A stretch of 64,000 bases of DNA from Candidatus Sericytochromatia bacterium. Its GTDB lineage: Bacteria > Cyanobacteriota > Sericytochromatia > S15B-MN24 > JAQBPE01. This document shows positions 17,957 through 29,800 of this stretch, in pieces. Below the pieces are notes generated by a model. That model did not search any database, was not told the origin of the DNA, and saw only the letters and a list, made by a program, of their open reading frames with translations. Position numbers and translations under genes: made by a program. The number at the start of each line of letters is the position of its first letter. Positions within the stretch are counted from its first letter, which is position 1. The stretch lies in contig JBBAPZ010000004.1 in the NCBI GenBank assembly GCA_040400605.1, forward strand, positions 158,353 to 222,352, written 5' to 3'.

Positions 17957-18034
17957 TCATTTGACAACACTGGCTTTTATGCTCAGACACGCTCGAAGGC
18001 ACCAAGTCCGCTTGACCGCCCCTTGGTTTCAAAC

Positions 18035-18143
18035 CGCCATCCGGTGACACATCGGCTCTATTCAAAAATTGTGTGGCAAACTCAAAACATCAGGCCTAGA
18101 CGTGTTGCCCTTCACCAACAGCCAAAACTTGATCACCAATCAG
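18035..18143 (+). repeat. dispersed intergenic repeat, copy B
   Basis: cgccatccggtgacacatcggctctaTTCAAAaattgtgtggcaaaCTCAAAACATCAGG...accAACAGCCAAAActtgATCACCAATC. Confidence 0.7.
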
Positions 18144-21101: not shown

Positions 21102-23375
21102 TTAACGGGTGACGGCCCCGGGGTTGGCTGCTCCTTGCTCAGACTCGCCATGAACGCGCGCAAGTTCCGTGATGTGCCAAGCTGCCACCAAATAAGGATA
21201 TTTGGATTGACTGAATTCACCAGGAACCTGAAAGCCGAGGCGTAAAATCTGCTTCGCACGCGTGATGCCCACATACAGCAAACGCAAGCGCTCCGCCACC
21301 TGTTCAGCCGCTGCCACGGCAATGGGATCCGCCGCATCTGCCGATTCAGGCTGGGCCAGGCGTTTTAGAATATGCTCCACGAGCAGGAGGCGCTGATCAC
21401 TCACCCGCGCCTGCTTGAGCTCCCACGGGTAATGCCGGGACTGGTTCAATCCTGGCAACCAGACACAGTCAAACTCCAATCCTTTGGCGCTATGCAGTGT
21501 CATGATGCGAACCGGCAACGGCTCTGTTGCATCAGCATCCGGCTCATCGGTCGTTTCATCACGCGACACACGAAATATTCGTTGGGCACTGCCCTCAAAG
21601 TTGGTCATCGCCAACTCGGTAACAACGTCCTTGAGCCGATAGTCCGGATGTTGGTGCAACATCCGCCGAACCATCATGGCGATCGCCTCGGCCACACTCA
21701 GTTGATACGGGTCACGAAAATAGCAATCAGCCACCGCCGTGATGAGGTCAACCGGAGACAGATGCCGACGATGCAAGAGCACCCCCGCCTGCCTGACAAA
21801 CTCAAGCCATGCCGCCCACACACCGGGCTCACGTGGCCATTCGTATCCGGTTATCGGGTAAAGCACACCATCCGGGTTCAACAGTTTGCGCCAATCCACG
21901 CGCCGCTGCGTGATAAACACCAGTAGCGCGCCACGAAGGTCCTCCAGTTGCTTGTCCCAACGACTCAAGTGATGGATGCCTCGCCAGTAAGCCACAAACG
22001 CATCGACCAATGCCCGCCTGTAACCATCGGAGTCCGTGTCAATCGCCAAAAAACGCAGCACGTGCAGAACAACTTCCGCGCACACACGCACTTCTTCATT
22101 TGACGCACCATCGGCCACAACCGGCACATCAAGAGCCAGCAATGCCTTCCGGTATGATTCAACCTGCTCATGCGTCTGAACCAAAATGGCCTGCGACAAC
22201 GGACGACCATCTGGCCGGAAGGCCTGCGCCTGTGCGACCCCCTTGGCGATCGCCTGGATTTCATCATCCTTGGTCCCTTCAGTGGGCAACCACTTCACGG
22301 CGCCACGCCGCGACACGGGATTGGAACCATCTGCCGCCACTTCAATCAAATGTGCGCGAAATGCGTTTTGGCGCACATGCTCATCCGGGTGTGAACGCGC
22401 CACCAGCGTGACCAAACCGTTCGCAAGATCCAAAATCGACTGACAACTGCGCGACGACTCGGTCATCGAAATCATCGGCACCGTTTCACAAAATTCGCGA
22501 AAATAACGCGGATCATTCATCGTGAACGACGCATAAATCGATTGGTTGGCATCCCCAACCCGCACCAAATTGCCGTGGCGCGCCACGATCTGATCAATCA
22601 GGCGCTTCTGCCCAGGCGTTGAATCTTGCGCCTCATCCTCCAACACATAACGGTAACAATCCTGCAAACGCCCCAGCACGCCAGCGTCACGGCTCAGCAA
22701 TACATTCACCATCAAGACAAGTTCGTCATAATCCAAGGCACCCCGCCGCCGACGCTCCGCTTCATAGTGCGTGATCATGGCCGGCACCTCCGATAAACCG
22801 TGCTGGTTCAACGCCTCACACACCTCTACTTGAGACAGCATCAGATTCTTCATGACGGCCAACGCTTTAAGTGCCACCAGGCGTGAACGTTCCATCGCTT
22901 TTAATGTGGGGTCAATCGCCTCAGGAGCGTCCGCATCCAGGCCCGCACGCACGCGCCAGTCACGCCGATTGACCGGATCAGCCAGATACCCATTCAAAGC
23001 CTGCTGCAAAATTGCCTCGCGCTCGCGTTCCTGCAACACCTCGAAACCTGGTAGAAGCCCGATCCGCGCCCCATAGCGCGTCAACACCTCGTGGCAAAAG
23101 CTATGAATGGTCACAGCCTTGATACCATGTGATGGAATCCCATCCGCTTCGAGTGCACGGCGAATCCGTTCACGGATATTGGTTGCAGCCGACCGTGTGT
23201 AGGTAAGAATCAACAGTTGGCCAGGTCGTGCACCCAAGTCCTTGATGAGCCGTGTTGCAAGCATCACAAGCGCCGTCGTTTTACCCGCACCAGGCACCGC
23301 GGCAACCGCCAAGGCGCCCCCTGTATACTCAAGTATCGCTTGTTGTGCCCGTCGCGGCTGCATGGCCATCATCAC
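21102..23375 (-). CDS. UvrD/Rep (SF1A) ATP-dependent DNA helicase, AddA-like motor without nuclease domain
   Basis: All SF1 motifs present: AVPGAGKT, LTYTRSAA, TIHSFC, LEDEAQD, VGDANQSIY, ESSRS, TLHSAKGLEFD, RLLYVGITRAK. Confidence 0.93.
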   Translation of the reverse strand: MMMAMQPRRAQQAILEYTGGALAVAAVPGAGKTTALVMLATRLIKDLGARPGQLLILTYTRSAATNIRERIRRALEADGIPSHGIKAVTIHSFCHEVLTRYGARIGLLPGFEVLQEREREAILQQALNGYLADPVNRRDWRVRAGLDADAPEAIDPTLKAMERSRLVALKALAVMKNLMLSQVEVCEALNQHGLSEVPAMITHYEAERRRRGALDYDELVLMVNVLLSRDAGVLGRLQDCYRYVLEDEAQDSTPGQKRLIDQIVARHGNLVRVGDANQSIYASFTMNDPRYFREFCETVPMISMTESSRSCQSILDLANGLVTLVARSHPDEHVRQNAFRAHLIEVAADGSNPVSRRGAVKWLPTEGTKDDEIQAIAKGVAQAQAFRPDGRPLSQAILVQTHEQVESYRKALLALDVPVVADGASNEEVRVCAEVVLHVLRFLAIDTDSDGYRRALVDAFVAYWRGIHHLSRWDKQLEDLRGALLVFITQRRVDWRKLLNPDGVLYPITGYEWPREPGVWAAWLEFVRQAGVLLHRRHLSPVDLITAVADCYFRDPYQLSVAEAIAMMVRRMLHQHPDYRLKDVVTELAMTNFEGSAQRIFRVSRDETTDEPDADATEPLPVRIMTLHSAKGLEFDCVWLPGLNQSRHYPWELKQARVSDQRLLLVEHILKRLAQPESADAADPIAVAAAEQVAERLRLLYVGITRAKQILRLGFQVPGEFSQSKYPYLVAAWHITELARVHGESEQGAANPGAVTR

Positions 23376-23381
23376 CTCAAC

Positions 23382-24218
23382 TCACAACGAGACCGGCTCA
23401 TCGTCGAATTCGTACTCTGGTAACAACGCCAGGTAATCATCCGGGCCCACCTCGGGAACATCGTCGTCCGCTACCTGCTCTTCAATGCGCATGTCAGCCA
23501 GATGACACAACGAATAGAAACGACAAGGCGCAGGCTTTAAACACCGCTGACCCTGCTTGCCCGTCGGCTCGTATCCGGACCGCGCCATCGACGCCATTAC
23601 CCGCAGCAAATTCGACCGAACCCCCTCATGTCGCTCACTGTCATGCTGGATGACGACTTCCTGTCCGTGCTCAACATAGTAAAAGACCATTTTGATGGCC
23701 TCCGGTGCGATCGCCACCCCCCCGTTCAGCGCGCTACCCACCTCAGCCAAAACAAAAGGGTACAACAACGCTTGCCAATCATCTGCCAGAACGCGCGCAT
23801 CAGGTAACCGTTCACTCGTTTTCCAATCCACAATCACAAACTCGGAACCACGCTGAATCACGCGATCAAACGTCGCACGAACAACCATATCCCCCACCGA
23901 AGCGCTCAAGTGCAGCTCGGAATGGACAGGTCCGTCCAGCGCCGCATATGCACTGGCTCGATAACGTTCAAACCACCGCCGCAAATCCGGATCCGTACGC
24001 GCCAACGATCGCGGATCAAGCCCCAGCGCATGTTGGTGAATCAGGTGGTGCAATTGTGTGCCCAGAGACGTTCGCCGTTCGCTCAATTGCGGGTCCGTGC
24101 CTTGCGGCCCCGGCCAGGGCATCGGATGAATGTAAGTAAACGCGAACAGCCGCTCGCAACGATCCCACGCGCGCAAACCCGTCGCCGACAATACCAAGGC
24201 ATGCGATTCACCCGTCAC
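23382..24218 (-). CDS. stand-alone PD-(D/E)XK (RecB/AddB-type) nuclease, probably [4Fe-4S]
   Basis: LSATGL..W..C, GTQLHH, SE, FDRV, IVDWKT and QALLY motifs. C-terminal CLKPAPCRFYSLC followed by an acidic tail. Confidence 0.88.
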   Translation of the reverse strand: MTGESHALVLSATGLRAWDRCERLFAFTYIHPMPWPGPQGTDPQLSERRTSLGTQLHHLIHQHALGLDPRSLARTDPDLRRWFERYRASAYAALDGPVHSELHLSASVGDMVVRATFDRVIQRGSEFVIVDWKTSERLPDARVLADDWQALLYPFVLAEVGSALNGGVAIAPEAIKMVFYYVEHGQEVVIQHDSERHEGVRSNLLRVMASMARSGYEPTGKQGQRCLKPAPCRFYSLCHLADMRIEEQVADDDVPEVGPDDYLALLPEYEFDDEPVSL

Positions 24219-26353
24219 AGCGAGACCTCCGTGGCAGTCCCATTGGCGATCGCCCGGGTGGCGTGCGCAAACTCAGCGAACCAACCCAACAACTCACCCG
24301 ACAACTCCGCCCCATCCGACCCGTGATCGGATGCGAACACATCCAGCCCAACGCGACACTTCGACACGATTGCTCTCAGCGTACGTCCCAGTTTTAACGC
24401 CTGATCACGCTGATCATGGTCTTCTGTGTACATCCCTTCATCCCAATTGCGCGACAACACCCGCGGATTGATAAACTCGCGGATATCCGACTTCCACCAC
24501 AAAGGCGACGCCACATCCACCCACAATTGATGAGCGACTGGCGCGCCCTCTTCGGCATATTTGGCTGCCGTGTACAGCGTTACTGCCGCAGGCAAACTGC
24601 CACGCGGAATCAACGGACGTTCGGCCAGTTCTCCCGCATAAATGGATCGTAGAAAACGTTTGGGATCCCCCGCGCTGCCCTCCCCCAAAGCCGCCATCAA
24701 ATGACGATGGGTGCGCGCATTCTGGATCAATTGATCGATCTGCAACACATCCATCGCCACATCCGCTGACTTCAAGCTCCCAGCTTCCCCTTTCACGCCA
24801 TCCGGCGCCAAACCAAGCAGACATCGAGGGGCATACACCTGCGCGAATGCCTGCTCCAACAGCACATCCAATGGCGCTTCGCTTTCGCACATCTGCTTGA
24901 CCCACCCGTAAAGACCGTCATACGACGCCCGTCGGTTCTCAAGCAAACGCGGCCAATTCACCGTATCCGCGACGTTCAGTTGCCCATCCTGATAAACACC
25001 CCGCTGCACGTGCGGCGATTCCAAAGGATGCAGATTCAACAACGTTTCAAGCATCTCCGTGACATCCGCTTCTGGCGGCGGCATCTGCCATTGGGGGCGT
25101 GCCAGACGAACCAGCGTCGTCAACACCCGGACGGGCCGGTGATCCACCACACGATTCGTTCCAGTCAACACCCTTAAGGGCAAACCATCCTGGGCCAGCC
25201 CCTCGCGCAAATGCCAAAGTAACAAAGGGTCCACCATCGGCGCGATCACCACGATTTGCTGCGACGGAACACCCTGCGCCACCAGCGCGCGAACCCGTGC
25301 GATCAGTACATCGAACATCTGCACCCGCAACACACAAGACGGATGCAAACTTAAAATCGACCGTTTCCCACTCGGATTGACCGAAGCCGCCGCTTCATCC
25401 ACCGCCCGCGCATACAGGTAATCAGCAAGGCTCGCAGCCGGCAAAGCGGCTTCTGAAATCATCAAGTAACGTTCTTCAAAGCCCTGACTCAATGCCCGCG
25501 CACCCACCGGATCACCACCCAAATACTCCCGCAAGCCACCAAGCGGATTGCAAGCCACCAACACACTCCGTGCCTTTTTACTCACGTGATCAATCACCCG
25601 CAACGCGACCGGACAGCACTCTTCAAAATCATCCACCAAAACGTGCTGGGTATGCGCCGCCAAACGCTGCAAGTAACCACGATGATTCAGTAAAGCCAAC
25701 GTAAACAATTCGAGCTGCAAGGCATGATCCAACACCCGATAAGTCATGCAACGCGAGCGGTAAGCCGCAATCGCTTCAGCAATATACACATGGAATGCCT
25801 GCGACTGCGGCCCCGCATCATGACAGGCGTTTAAACGGGGCAACACCGTGTCATACGGCAGACCGTGCTCGATCACCCGCGCATACGCATCCAATACCTG
25901 GACCCGCCGCATCGCAGGCGCTGTAAAACTTTCGGCAAGAACATCGTGTTTTGGGTCAATCTCCGCGCAGCAATCAGACAAAATATGTTGCGCAGCCATC
26001 AAACCAATAAAAAACGGCCTCGCTTGCGGCGGTTTGCCTGGTAATACACCACTGCTTTCAACCAACGCCCAGTTTTGCATTAACTCTTGCCGAACCCACG
26101 AACGAAATGTCATCACGGTCGCGTTAACACCCCGGTGATTCCAATCGCGAATGACCTGTTGCCAATGCTGTACCGCCTGCTGGTTCGACACCCACACCAC
26201 TACGCCAGTTGGAAATTCTCCAGACTGTAACAACTGCCGAAAACGCATCAACAGCACGCCGGTCTTGCCACTGCCTGGCGGCCCGTTCAAAACCCTGGGA
26301 GGATGCGACAAATCAGTGCTCCACCCATCTAACACGCCGTCAGCCCCACTCAC
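24215..26353 (-). CDS. degenerate UvrD-like P-loop protein (AddB/RecC-like scaffold candidate)
   Basis: Walker A GPPGSGKT and TFRSW are present. Walker B is altered (VLVDDFEE). Motifs III, V and VI are not recognisable. Stop overlaps the nuclease start (GTGA). Confidence 0.75.
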   Translation of the reverse strand: MSGADGVLDGWSTDLSHPPRVLNGPPGSGKTGVLLMRFRQLLQSGEFPTGVVVWVSNQQAVQHWQQVIRDWNHRGVNATVMTFRSWVRQELMQNWALVESSGVLPGKPPQARPFFIGLMAAQHILSDCCAEIDPKHDVLAESFTAPAMRRVQVLDAYARVIEHGLPYDTVLPRLNACHDAGPQSQAFHVYIAEAIAAYRSRCMTYRVLDHALQLELFTLALLNHRGYLQRLAAHTQHVLVDDFEECCPVALRVIDHVSKKARSVLVACNPLGGLREYLGGDPVGARALSQGFEERYLMISEAALPAASLADYLYARAVDEAAASVNPSGKRSILSLHPSCVLRVQMFDVLIARVRALVAQGVPSQQIVVIAPMVDPLLLWHLREGLAQDGLPLRVLTGTNRVVDHRPVRVLTTLVRLARPQWQMPPPEADVTEMLETLLNLHPLESPHVQRGVYQDGQLNVADTVNWPRLLENRRASYDGLYGWVKQMCESEAPLDVLLEQAFAQVYAPRCLLGLAPDGVKGEAGSLKSADVAMDVLQIDQLIQNARTHRHLMAALGEGSAGDPKRFLRSIYAGELAERPLIPRGSLPAAVTLYTAAKYAEEGAPVAHQLWVDVASPLWWKSDIREFINPRVLSRNWDEGMYTEDHDQRDQALKLGRTLRAIVSKCRVGLDVFASDHGSDGAELSGELLGWFAEFAHATRAIANGTATEVSL

Positions 26354-26440
26354 GGTCGCACCGCCGCCCCAACTCTGAGCGCTACCCCGACAACCTGCCC
26401 AAGCGACCCGGTACGGAGGAAAAAGCCTGCTCTAAAAACC

Positions 26441-28186
26441 TCACCCATGCCCATGCCCTCCACCAAACGATGGCGACGCGGCAAGGTGTCTGGCCTGGGC
26501 CGGCAAGATATGCTCGGCACGAAGCCGTAATAAAGTAGCGCCACTAAAAAAATCCGTTGCCCGTTCCAGATGAAACAACACATCAACCCGCTCCGGCAGA
26601 GGCGCCAAATGTCCCTTGAACCACCCCACCAACTCAAGATCATGTCGCACCTTGCCGAATAAATGCCCCTTTTGAACACGCACGGCATCAATCGCCACAT
26701 TCTCAAGTGCCAGCAATGGACGCGGATTCTCTTGACCGTGCGGCTCCAGCAACTCCAACGCATCCATCAGCGCCGAATCAATCTCATCAACCGTGACAAC
26801 TGCTGCAACAATCGGCAAGGCAGTCCCCACGCGCCAGCCAGTCTGATTCAATGCATCATTGAGACAATCGCGAAACGCATCAAGATGATGTTTCTCCACC
26901 GCACAGCCAGCCGCCTGCGCATGCCCACCCCAACGGGTCATCAGTGCATCCGCATGCGACAGCAAGCCGACGAGATCAACACCCTTCGGCGCCCGCGCAG
27001 AGCCGCGGTACAATTCCGGTTCGTGTTCTTCTTGCCCCAATAACACCACCGGCCGCCCAAAGTCTTGCAAGACTTTGCCCGCAACCAAACCCACCAAGCC
27101 GTGATGCCAACCGACACCATCCAACACGATGAAGGGGTACCGTTCAGGTGGCATTTCGCGTTCAATACGCCCCCGCACCTCCTCATACAACGCCTTGGTA
27201 ACGTCCTTGCGGGTCGCGTTCAACTGGACCAGATGTGCTGCCCGTCGCTCCGCAAACTGGCGGTCATCCGTCACCAACAATTCATAGGCCAGGGCCGGGT
27301 GTTCCAAACGTCCCGCAGCGTTCACCATCGGTGCGATCACAAAACCGAGATCCTGCGCCGTCACGTGACGCACCGGGTACTTGGGATTCGCGGCATTGTG
27401 CGCATCAAGCAAAGCCTGGGCACCCACCCGTTTATGATTCAGATTCCAGCGTTTCAACCCCAGATGCACCAACGCACGGTTGTAGTCCGTGAGCGGGACC
27501 ATGTCACCCAGTGTACCGATGCAAGCCAGGTCCAACAATTGCCCCGCACGGCGCAGATCGTGGTCACTCAGCACCACACACAGCATCAAGGCCACGCCTG
27601 CTCCCGAAAGCGCTGCGTATTCCGGAAAATCAACCTTGGGGTGAACCAGGGCCAACGCATCAGGCAAGTCGCCTTTGGCACTGTGATGGTCCGTCACAAT
27701 CAGATCAATGCCGTGCGCACGACACGCACGCGCCGCCTCCACCGCCGTAATGCCATTGTCTGTGGTGACAATGAGCGTGGTGCCTGCCGCAGCCAGTTCC
27801 GGAATCACCGAAGCGTTGAGTCCGTAGCCTTCCTTGAAACGACTGGGCAAAAACACGTGTGAATCCAACTGCATGCCCACTTTAAAGTACCGTTGCAGAA
27901 TACTCGCGCCACTCACCCCATCCGCATCGTAATCTCCGTAAATGACCACCCGTTCGTCGGCCGCCTGGGCCTCTCGCAAGCGCTGCACGGCTTTAATCAT
28001 ATGGGGCGAAGGCTTGAACGCCGCCATCCAGCCAAGATCACCCCTGGCATACAACCAACGCTGCGCATCCTCCGCGCAGTTGGCACCCATCTGCGCGAGG
28101 ACTTGCCCCAAAATCCGCGGCAACTGCAAGCGCCGCGAGATGTCGCGCGCCGCGCGCTCGTTCGTTTCTGCGAGTATCCAACCCAT
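26441..28186 (-). CDS. recJ: single-stranded-DNA-specific exonuclease RecJ
   Basis: YGDYDADG, TTDNG, TDHH, GTLGDMVPL, NAAGRL, WHHGLVGLVA, RGSAR, GGHAQAAG. Confidence 0.95.
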   Translation of the reverse strand: MGWILAETNERAARDISRRLQLPRILGQVLAQMGANCAEDAQRWLYARGDLGWMAAFKPSPHMIKAVQRLREAQAADERVVIYGDYDADGVSGASILQRYFKVGMQLDSHVFLPSRFKEGYGLNASVIPELAAAGTTLIVTTDNGITAVEAARACRAHGIDLIVTDHHSAKGDLPDALALVHPKVDFPEYAALSGAGVALMLCVVLSDHDLRRAGQLLDLACIGTLGDMVPLTDYNRALVHLGLKRWNLNHKRVGAQALLDAHNAANPKYPVRHVTAQDLGFVIAPMVNAAGRLEHPALAYELLVTDDRQFAERRAAHLVQLNATRKDVTKALYEEVRGRIEREMPPERYPFIVLDGVGWHHGLVGLVAGKVLQDFGRPVVLLGQEEHEPELYRGSARAPKGVDLVGLLSHADALMTRWGGHAQAAGCAVEKHHLDAFRDCLNDALNQTGWRVGTALPIVAAVVTVDEIDSALMDALELLEPHGQENPRPLLALENVAIDAVRVQKGHLFGKVRHDLELVGWFKGHLAPLPERVDVLFHLERATDFFSGATLLRLRAEHILPAQARHLAASPSFGGGHGHG

Positions 28187-28517
28187 GGTAGCCCCTCGTT
28201 TTGTGTCACAGCCTTTGTAGTTTAACAGGGATCATGTGGTGCTTGGGTTGGTGGGATAAAAGCGACCGGCAAGATACCAGTTAACTGGCAAATAACACCA
28301 TTTTTCGTTATCACTGGGCACTCATCATTAAGCGACACACAAAATGGTCAGCCAAACACAGAGCGTGGTCCAGACGTGACGAAAAAAACGCCCCTTTTCC
28401 ACCCTTATCGCACAAACAGCGTGTCGGCGTCTATCTCACGACACGCTGATAACCTGGTTCTCGATGGCGTTGAAGTCAAACAATCAAGCAACAGCACAAA
28501 AATTACCATTCAAAGTA

Positions 28518-28638
28518 ACGCGATACAGGGACGCAAAGGTTTTGTTCAAAGCTTGTCTTGTAACCTCAAAACATCAGGCACTGACTCGCTGTTTTTGAAT
28601 AGCAGCCAAAATTTGACCACCAGTCAATGCATTTCTGT
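28518..28638 (+). repeat. dispersed intergenic repeat, copy C
   Basis: cgcgatacagggacgcaaaggttttgTTCAAAgcttgtcttgtaacCTCAAAACATCAGGcactgac...agCAGCCAAAAtttgACCACCAGTC...tttctgt. Confidence 0.7.
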
Positions 28639-29800
28639 ACCGTTGATAGTGATGGGCCGGATTCGGGCATTACCCGTATCTGCAACATATATGGCACCGG
28701 AGGTATCGACAGCCACGCCAACAGGGTCTATCATACCGCGCCGCCGTTCCAGAATCATCAACATAACCCGGAGCCAAACCGGCTAAGGTGCTAACACGAC
28801 CCTCGGGCGTGATTTTTCTGATTCGGTGGTTGTCAGTGTCAGTCAAATCGTTGTTGCCGTCGTTGTCCAACGCCAATTTTGTAGGGGAGTTAAACTGAGC
28901 CATGGCGCCGATATCGTCTGCATCACCTTCGACAGCCCCAGCGACTGTCGTTACCTCGACAGAGGGAAGAGGTTGTGACGCAGTCGCGTTGGGCAATACA
29001 CTTTGGGATAGCTGCGCAGATTTTGAGCGATCGCTTCCATACCTTCCGATACCTTGGACACGTCATCAGCCAACAACTTCAGATCTTTCTCGAGTTGCCG
29101 TTCGTTTAAACGATTAACGGGCATCATCAGGTGTCAATGCTCGCGCAACGTCCACTACCAGTTGTTGATAAGCGGATTCGTTCAAACGCCCCCAAAGACC
29201 CTGAGCCGTTTGCTTCAATTGCGTCAGCGCAAGCGTGCGCGCATCGGACACCGTCGTATCGGTCTCCGATGCTGCCAATACCGAAACCTGAATTTTTCCT
29301 TTGGCCGTTAGTCGCGATGCAACAACTGTATGGGTCAGTCCGACAGGACCCTCCTGTGATGCGATAGCGTCCGGATGCATCCGTATTAACAGGCTTGATG
29401 GCCTCAAATACTTTTCCTGAAGCACAATCGGCATACCAGCCAATGGTTGCTCTTCAAAAGGCTGTGCGACATCGCTCGCCTGTAACAATGCGCTTCCTAT
29501 CGCGTTCCTATCTTGGAATCCACACGCGTTATCTGTAATCAGTCTACTCGCGTTGTTGGCAGTCAAGGCACCCCCAGTCTGAGTCACCAAACTGCTTTGC
29601 AGGAGCACGTGATCTTTCAGCGTCATCACTGGTAAGCGTTTCGGATCTGTATTGAATGTCGGCCGTGCAACAAGTCCTTCGTTATCAGTTACAACAGAAC
29701 CGAGCGGTGAGGTACCCACGCACGCTGGAAGTGCCAACAAAGCAACCGTAATCAGCCAATGATAGCAACGGTTTGACCTCACTATCGGCACACCGCACAC
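28624..29800 (-). pseudogene. disrupted lipoprotein with C-terminal NHL repeats
   Basis: N-part has a lipobox-like LALPAC and stops at 29114, with further in-frame stops after it. 28996-28720 encodes NHL repeats (AQFNSPTKLALD...DNHRIRKITPEGRVSTLAG). After a frameshift near 28720 it continues PVGVAVDTSGAIYVADTGNARIR...*. Confidence 0.75.

What the first reader, a model, noticed from the sequence alone, without database searches (positions are those of the whole stretch)
21102..28186. Candidate split AddAB/AdnAB-like end-resection system in one operon with RecJ
Seen: four co-directional, tightly packed genes. Order is recJ, a 712-aa UvrD-like protein with decayed motors, a 278-aa stand-alone PD-(D/E)XK nuclease (4-nt overlap), and an intact 757-aa SF1A helicase (6-nt gap) with no C-terminal nuclease. 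Established: AddAB, AdnAB and RecBC each pair an active SF1A motor with a second UvrD-fold subunit (inactive in AddB and RecC) and carry RecB-family nucleases fused to the C-terminus. RecJ is the 5'->3' ssDNA exonuclease of the RecFOR pathway. Inference: the same parts are present here as separate chains, with one nuclease instead of two, and RecJ could supply 5'-strand degradation. That would be a hybrid RecJ/AddAB-like resection machine that I cannot match to a named system. An anti-phage or anti-plasmid role is an alternative.
Basis: partly seen in the sequence, partly recalled or inferred. Interest (0 to 1): 0.82.

Follow-up and report, generated by a model that had tools for sequence, protein, structure and literature searches.

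The report
Four-part DNA-end helicase-nuclease of cyanobacteria
A working DNA-unwinding motor, a motor-dead look-alike, a small iron-sulfur nuclease and RecJ form one conserved, undescribed module that probably chews DNA ends in most cyanobacteria, a group thought to lack the usual machines for this.

Summary
Observation confirmed: recJ (J), motor-dead UvrD fold (B), RecB-type Fe-S nuclease (N), SF1A helicase (A). The set is conserved: B-A-N-J recurs in the host's class and in Chloroflexota, B-A-N in Latescibacterota. B, N and A are in 190, 184 and 181 of 201 phylum genomes; the 11 without B also lack N and A. One family fuses B and A (24 of 24 loci). New here: in Synechococcus elongatus the genes are scattered, yet the counterparts of B, A, N and a long RecJ are 4 of the 6 hits among 1,886 genes in a published plasmid-restriction screen, beside Argonaute (PMC10653904). 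Best reading (0.62): a split, one-nuclease relative of AdnAB/AddAB that degrades DNA ends with RecJ. Against a plain replacement: this genome also has an AddAB-like pair, S. elongatus mutants are not UV-sensitive, and the window's RecJ is a different lineage from the screen's. No complex or activity has been shown. The scan found this operon before on other DNA (8 notes seen); a word search found none citing that screen.

The parts
26441..28186 (-). J: RecJ 5'-3' ssDNA exonuclease, 581 aa, short form without the ~200-aa C-terminal extension of most operon RecJs; only RecJ found in this genome
24215..26353 (-). B: UvrD-fold protein, 712 aa, Walker A kept, motifs II, III, V, VI lost; counterpart of S. 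elongatus Synpcc7942_0992; databases call the family 'hypothetical' or 'recombinase family protein'
23382..24218 (-). N: stand-alone RecB-family PD-(D/E)XK nuclease, 278 aa, E101/D118/D131/K133, Q149-Y153, Cys 21/226/232/238 (1+3 Fe-S pattern); counterpart of Synpcc7942_2273 ('cas4')
21102..23375 (-). A: SF1A helicase, 757 aa, ATPase motifs intact, no nuclease domain, distinct from the genome's PcrA; counterpart of Synpcc7942_2515 ('uvrD')

Best explanation
The four genes are one housekeeping module, a split relative of AdnAB/AddAB. Shown here by comparison: B, A and N are kept and lost together, are one operon with recJ in two phyla, and B and A are one chain in one family. Shown by others' genetics: the S. 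elongatus counterparts give the same phenotype in two screens. Inferred: A and B form a heterodimer that binds a DNA end; A is the only motor (3'-5', by family); B is the non-motor partner that holds the other strand, as RecC, AddB and AdnA do (recalled); N is the detached nuclease, most simply A's lost C-terminal domain (usual order A then N), and cuts unwound ssDNA; RecJ trims the 5' strand in place of the missing second nuclease. The output is degradation of free ends: resection at breaks or collapsed forks, destruction of incoming linear or plasmid DNA, and, where an Argonaute exists, guide supply. Which strand N cuts, and whether RecA is loaded, is unknown.
For: Co-occurrence: B 190, N 184, A 181 of 201 genomes; the 11 B-less genomes (four lineages) have neither A nor N. 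Gene order where 6.5 kb follow B: class 17 loci: BANJ 11, JBAN 1, BAN 1, B alone 4; other phyla 58 of 80 loci: BANJ 23, BAN 24, BA 6, B 5. Fusions: P0124, P0152, P0154, P0156; 24 of 24 f9 loci fetched, N directly after in 22; model of one natural fusion pTM 0.80 over 1200 residues with a low-confidence linker, no control run. B model: rmsd 4.1 A over 616 residues to AdnB, 5.1 to AddA, 5.9 to AddB. N profile: best solved relatives are the AdnB nuclease (E 2.4e-9), then entries 9iac/9iab and the AdnA nuclease. Genetics: 0992 +2.26, 2515 +2.39, 2273 +3.39, 0517 +2.24, ago +5.58 in the RSF1010 screen; the same four are among 12 genes whose loss raises natural transformation. Loss of addAB (with ppol) likewise raises transformation in T. 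thermophilus (PMC11143384 passages). All four transcripts rise modestly 2 h into UV (log2 0.57-1.66). 162 of 190 B-positive genomes show neither RecC nor the AddB-like gene with the queries used.
Against: No biochemistry exists. The module coexists with other machines: this genome has a two-nuclease AddAB-like pair, as do 17 more phylum genomes and 3 of 5 genomes from other phyla; 10 RecC genomes keep B. S. elongatus mutants show no UV fitness cost (all estimates within 0.07 of zero), though that strain also has an annotated AddA, itself without phenotype. The UV induction is under that paper's own threshold of 2. Free UvrD/PcrA chains give higher Z (28) than AdnB (24) for the B model. The window's RecJ is not of the RecJcy lineage: one clade of all operon RecJs plus RecJcy is rejected (p-AU 1e-42, quick tree), and Latescibacterota loci mostly lack an intact recJ. 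In 16 of 16 oxygenic loci B stands alone. No LexA-like box upstream of recJ.
Confidence: 0.62

Rival explanations
1. The module is mainly an innate barrier to foreign DNA (plasmids, transforming DNA), acting alone or as the guide generator for Argonaute; chromosome repair is secondary.
For: The only mutant phenotypes found are better plasmid maintenance and better transformation, shared with ago; no UV cost; coexists with AddAB/RecBCD; N's profile matches entries 9iac/9iab, which I take to be the Argonaute partners ACE1.
Against: Near-universal and single-copy in the phylum, unlike typical defence genes; a Piwi domain is found in only 18 of 201 and not in this genome (a lower bound: the control missed the S. 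elongatus and T. thermophilus Argonautes); PADLOC gives only generic helicase and weak Cas4 matches; neighbours are housekeeping genes; GC 0.573 against 0.559 for the genome.
Confidence: 0.15
2. It works at stalled forks or ssDNA gaps rather than at free ends: A/B unwind nascent strands or clear proteins, N and RecJ degrade the flaps. This is close to the reading offered for uvrD and recJcy in PMC10653904.
For: RecJ is a gap/fork enzyme (established knowledge); RSF1010 replicates by strand displacement (recalled); A's motif III tail departs from the PcrA pattern; no Chi-like or RecA-loading feature was tested.
Against: Two UvrD folds with one dead, plus a RecB-type Fe-S nuclease, is the parts list of end-resection machines; B's domain arrangement fits AdnB/AddA/AddB better than free UvrD by rmsd; loss in the RecC-bearing family f25.
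Confidence: 0.12
3. B-A-N is the machine; RecJ is a co-regulated neighbour and not a working part.
For: BAN without J in 24 of 58 loci of other phyla and in f9; different RecJ lineages fill the slot; the window's RecJ is the only one found in its genome and sits 87 nt upstream.
Against: 0517, not the other RecJ, is a screen hit with the same effect size as 0992 and 2515; RecJcy groups with the Chloroflexota operon RecJs (98 and 93 SH-aLRT); N lies next to the long RecJ in oxygenic genomes G067 and G149.
Confidence: 0.06
4. The proteins act in one pathway but do not form a stable complex, or B has a separate ATP-sensing or regulatory role.
For: Genes are scattered in oxygenic cyanobacteria; B keeps GK[TS] in 110 of 134 family members.
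Against: B-A fusions, in which B's Walker A has decayed further; confident packing in the fusion model.
Confidence: 0.05

Closest known systems
AdnAB (Mycobacterium smegmatis; PDB 6PPR, 6PPJ, 7SJR, 9NP6)
   Same: Two UvrD-fold subunits; B's profile hits AdnA (E 8e-17); B's model fits AdnB at 4.1 A over 616 residues; N's profile is closest to the AdnB nuclease.
   Different: Neither A nor B carries a nuclease; one free nuclease instead of two fused; B has lost motifs II, III, V, VI; RecJ is linked.
AddAB (Bacillus subtilis; PDB 3U44, 4CEJ)
   Same: Active motor plus inactivated partner with a kept Walker A; 1+3 cysteine Fe-S nuclease; B's profile hits AddB (E 3.9e-9).
   Different: A scores 123 bits on TIGR02785 (cut-off 708), B matches no NCBIfam model; no fused nucleases; the genome has a separate AddAB-like pair.
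RecBC(D)
   Same: One motor of SF1A type, one dead UvrD fold, one active nuclease (recalled for RecBC).
   Different: B does not match the RecC family PF04257; no RecD in the operon; nuclease is a free Fe-S type.
S. elongatus RSF1010-restriction hits uvrD, cas4, recJcy, Synpcc7942_0992 (PMC10653904)
   Same: Same gene families by profile score, length and neighbours.
   Different: The paper treats them as separate genes and describes 0992 as having a PD-(D/E)XK-like domain; my model of the family shows a UvrD fold throughout. The window's RecJ is another lineage.
Unfused UvrD + Cas4-like operon of Clostridiales (PMC5704561)
   Same: One sentence notes such a pair in a non-defence context and suggests repair; B relatives are named Bacillota/Clostridiales.
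   Different: I did not see the figure and did not test identity; no dead helicase or RecJ is mentioned in the passage.
APACE1 (Argonaute + ACE1; PMC12094033)
   Same: Free Fe-S Cas4-family ssDNA endonuclease of about 278 aa in cyanobacteria.
   Different: ACE1 is encoded beside an Argonaute and has no helicase partner; N is encoded with two UvrD folds.

Membership tests
AddAB | Active SF1A motor subunit plus inactivated UvrD-fold subunit | tested here: met
   Motifs I and II in 46 of 46 A sequences; II in 2, III, V, VI in 0 of 134 B sequences
AddAB | Nuclease domain fused to the C-terminus of both subunits | tested here: not met
   No PDDEXK_1 in A or B; both end after the helicase fold
AddAB | Fe-S nuclease with one N-terminal and three C-terminal cysteines | tested here: met
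   C21, C226, C232 invariant, C238 in 90% or more of 41; the cluster itself is inferred
AddAB | Curated family scores (TIGR02785, TIGR02784, TIGR02773, TIGR02786) | tested here: not met
   A 123 and 119 bits against cut-offs 708 and 861; B no match
AddAB | Chi-regulated resection of duplex ends | not testable with these tools
   needs biochemistry
AdnAB | Two UvrD-like subunits, each with a fused RecB-type nuclease | tested here: not met
AdnAB | Heterodimer of the two helicase-fold chains | tested here: inconclusive
   Natural fusions and pTM 0.80 for one fusion without control; no direct test of the free chains
RecBCD | RecC-family subunit (PF04257) | tested here: not met
   No match in B or in the genome, 94.55% complete
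RecBCD | RecD second motor in the locus | tested here: not met
   No such ORF in 14000-36000; not searched genome-wide
Gabija | GajA OLD-family nuclease beside the helicase | tested here: not met
   PADLOC gives GajB helicase matches only, no GajA among the four proteins
APACE1 | Argonaute encoded with the nuclease | tested here: not met
   No Argonaute in the operon; none found genome-wide, but that search is insensitive
RecJ (TIGR00644) | DHH, DHHA1 and OB domains | tested here: met
   388.7 bits, just under the 396.9 cut-off

The most novel reading that the evidence does not exclude
This is a fourth class of bacterial end-resection machine, the ancestral and near-universal one of Cyanobacteriota (also in Chloroflexota, Latescibacterota and some Bacillota): motor, dead partner, free Fe-S nuclease and RecJ. 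It fills the gap left by the missing RecBCD/AddAB, was displaced by RecBCD in one picocyanobacteria-sized family, supplies guides to S. elongatus Argonaute, and is a main barrier to transformation and broad-host-range plasmids in cyanobacteria.
Probability: 0.45. Interest if true: 0.93.

Novelty: new variant of a known kind. Interest (0 to 1): 0.84.

Why it matters
PMC12094033 states that most cyanobacteria lack RecBCD and AddAB and that guide generation for Argonautes is unclear in such species (passages); PMC5101192 allows for repair genes not yet identified (passages). This module names four candidate genes, present in a model strain with mutants already in hand, so the question becomes directly testable. 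It also reinterprets four loose screen hits as one machine, and predicts that removing it eases genetic engineering of cyanobacteria beyond the ago deletion.

Tried and rejected
Complex prediction of N against A gave no answer (score 0.00, controls not folded). Word-index homologue search found only 7 relatives of B; the full HMMER search found 507. The wide B alignment had no seed for a locus search; a 17-sequence subset worked. N alone found nothing useful among solved structures; its profile did. A recalled LexA-box pattern gave 23 matches against 28 expected, none upstream of recJ; no promoter consensus on the operon's strand. No RNA holder listed. My early guess that recJ is an accidental neighbour was wrong for the class. 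The idea that the window's RecJ is the direct orthologue of RecJcy was rejected. Strict replacement of AddAB/RecBCD was rejected. A mobile or defence-island origin found no support in neighbours or GC. A phylum-wide count in Chloroflexota was not run; five genomes were checked instead. Mutte et al. 2025 (Cell Rep) is not held; I saw only its reference line. PMC13663708 (passages) and 10.1101/072470 (passages) gave nothing on these genes. Nine literature searches listed no paper describing the four as one system; most subscription papers are outside the library.
Full report
OBSERVATION. B/N overlap by 4 nt, N/A are 6 nt apart, J/B are 87 nt apart. A contig of run X4 with 325 other letters is collinear over 21111-28204, so the order is real. 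The best named relative of B (47%) is labelled Candidatus Sericytochromatia; I infer a non-photosynthetic member of Cyanobacteriota.

ANATOMY. A has the ATPase motifs of SF1A helicases (motif patterns recalled); motifs I and II are in 46 of 46 family members, which I selected by profile score. Its motif III tail is atypical (family consensus GDPNQAIxxTFT). It is not the housekeeping enzyme: the genome has a 760-aa PcrA and another UvrD elsewhere, and the A profile scores A 686 bits against 238 for PcrA. B keeps a Walker A (GK[TS] in 110 of 134) but DExQD occurs in 2 of 134 and motifs III, V, VI in none. Its model (pLDDT 91.9) is a complete UvrD fold: highest Z to free UvrD/PcrA (28, rmsd 9-11 A), lowest rmsd over about 615 residues to AdnB (4.1 A, Z 24.1), then AddA (5.1) and AddB (5.9). 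N has the RecB-type E, D, DxK and QxxxY residues and cysteines in a 1+3 pattern, the Fe-S arrangement described for AddB, AdnA and Cas4 in PMC12094033 (passages). Its profile finds the AdnB nuclease first (E 2.4e-9).

CONSERVATION. In 201 phylum genomes at least 90% complete, B was found in 190 (E 1e-15), N in 184 (1e-16) and A in 181 (1e-75); 175 hold all three. I set the N and A cut-offs after seeing scores in five genomes. The 11 genomes without B also lack N and A; six B-positive genomes miss the N cut-off and nine miss the A cut-off. Kin are not independent: 82 of the 201 are one family (f9), and the 11 losses fall in four lineages. In f9 (small genomes; I infer Vampirovibrionia) 24 of 24 loci fetched encode B and A as one chain of 1278-1315 aa, with N directly after in 22; other fusions are P0124, P0152, P0154, P0156. 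A model of residues 1-1200 of one fusion has pTM 0.80 with a low-confidence linker, which suggests that the halves pack; no control was run and solved AdnAB/AddAB structures may have shaped it.

OTHER RESECTION MACHINES. RecC was found in 15 of 201: all 5 of family f25, which lacks the module, and 10 genomes that keep B. The window's genome has no RecC but has an AddAB-like pair of 867 and 1077 aa, each with a C-terminal nuclease, below the curated cut-offs. That AddB-like protein matches 18 of 201 genomes, all B-positive (one protein as query, so a lower bound). Thus 162 of 190 B-positive genomes showed neither. Of the B-less genomes, G012 has an AddAB-like pair, while G124, G146 and G129 had nothing over the cut-off. 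Of five genomes from other phyla, three have an AddAB-like pair and none RecC. The module is usually alone but is not a strict replacement.

LINK TO PUBLISHED GENETICS. PMC10653904 (section 8, passages and supplement rows) screened 1,886 S. elongatus PCC 7942 genes for RSF1010 maintenance; six losses helped: ago, cas4, uvrD, recJcy, rpoD2 and Synpcc7942_0992. I could not fetch the PCC 7942 proteins, so I matched them through genome G075, whose B protein lies in a 90% cluster of proteins named S. elongatus. There B follows cobU and a 1266-nt pxcA divergently at 73 nt, as 0992 does (665 codons against 656). The one strong A hit (449 bits, next 157) converges on argF, as 2515 does. The best N hit (118 bits, next 34) is 768 nt between folK and a chlD-like gene, as 2273 is. 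A 2328-nt recJ precedes a ctpB-like gene, as 0517 does. Fitness values: 2273 +3.39, 2515 +2.39, 0992 +2.26, 0517 +2.24, ago +5.58; the paralogue 1518 is -1.24 and the annotated AddA 1157 is -0.71. Three named genes among 6 of 1,886 has a chance of 1.8e-8, four 2.9e-11; I found the paper after defining the genes, and there were two RecJs to choose from. In PMC7125226 (passages and supplement rows) the same four are among 12 genes whose loss raises transformation (+1.11 to +2.68; 1157 is -0.58). In PMC9659335 (passages and supplement rows) none affects UV fitness, and all four transcripts rise at 2 h (log2 0.57-1.66, under the paper's threshold of 2; 1157 does not).

RECJ. Quick trees place RecJcy, including 0517, with the operon RecJs of Chloroflexota and Latescibacterota (98 with 55 rows, where the careful search did not finish; 93 with 33 rows after I dropped 22). 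The window's RecJ groups with other Sericytochromatia RecJs, and a single clade of all operon RecJs plus RecJcy is rejected (p-AU 1e-42; group named after the first tree). So the slot is conserved while the occupant changed. The window's RecJ is short and the only one found in its genome. In two of the oxygenic genomes checked, N still lies beside the long RecJ (G067, G149).

MECHANISM. Most likely (0.62) an A-B heterodimer loads on a DNA end, A translocates, N cuts unwound ssDNA and RecJ trims the 5' strand. Parts list, co-loss, fusion and shared phenotypes are shown; complex, substrate and polarity are inferred. The phenotypes fit known end-degrading machines: a ppol/addAB deletion raises transformation in T. 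thermophilus (PMC11143384, passages), and CbAgo guides need the break-repair machinery (10.1101/2020.03.01.971358, abstract). A role mainly against foreign DNA (0.15) or at forks and gaps (0.12) remains open. A Piwi domain was found in 18 of 201 genomes and not in this one (insensitive), so Argonaute service cannot be the general purpose. One result points the other way for a canonical system: deleting a plasmid-borne addAB in PCC 7002 lowered transformation (10.1101/2024.09.10.611283, passages).

WHAT IS KNOWN. It works like AdnAB/AddAB but fails membership: no fused nucleases, scores far below curated cut-offs. It is not RecBCD, Gabija or APACE1. PMC5704561 notes in one sentence an unfused UvrD plus Cas4-like operon in Clostridiales, possibly the A-N pair; untested. 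Nine searches listed no description of the four as one system; the library lacks most subscription papers and bioRxiv supplements were closed. Eight earlier notes of this scan describe the operon in other genomes; they are unchecked AI notes and not counted as support. A word search for the S. elongatus screen found no note, nor did a sequence search with B.

VERDICT. Real, conserved, undescribed as a system; a new variant of the helicase-nuclease resection machines. Interest 0.84, because it makes an open question about cyanobacteria testable with named genes in a model strain.

Noticed in passing
window 28520-28640: A dispersed intergenic repeat of about 120 bp, 70-87% alike, with close to 90 BLAST hits over the genome; one copy lies upstream of recJ, one near window 18034-18141, one just after a recA-like gene on contig C3.
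   Followed up: partly
L024:4140-9977 (G000:C21): AddAB-like pair (867 and 1077 aa, both with C-terminal nucleases), GC 0.603 against 0.559 for the genome, patchy in the phylum (18 of 201); may be acquired.
   Followed up: partly
L025 and L026 (G000:C24, C20): Two further solo PDDEXK_1 genes lie among phage-like replication genes (polymerase-, helicase-like); prophages or binned phage contigs (labels by eye).
   Followed up: no
L001:502-2389 (G000:C18): An encapsulin-like shell gene with a ferritin-like cargo gene near pcrA and a recO-like gene (labels recalled, not scanned).
   Followed up: no
P0022 (same layout suggested in L012): A B homologue with an N-terminal DUF4145 domain and coiled region, 1025 aa; may be a fusion or a mis-called start.
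   Followed up: no
L070:15056-16959, L071:5957-7861: In two Latescibacterota/Gemmatimonadota-labelled loci the gene after N is only weakly RecJ-like (36-119 bits), possibly a RecJ remnant.
   Followed up: no
L155:1414-2211 (G075): A second solo PD-(D/E)XK nuclease (265 aa) distinct from N.
   Followed up: no
genomes G124, G146, G129: No B, A, N, RecC or PDDEXK_1 match over the cut-off was found in these 98-99% complete genomes; how they process DNA ends is unexplained.
   Followed up: partly
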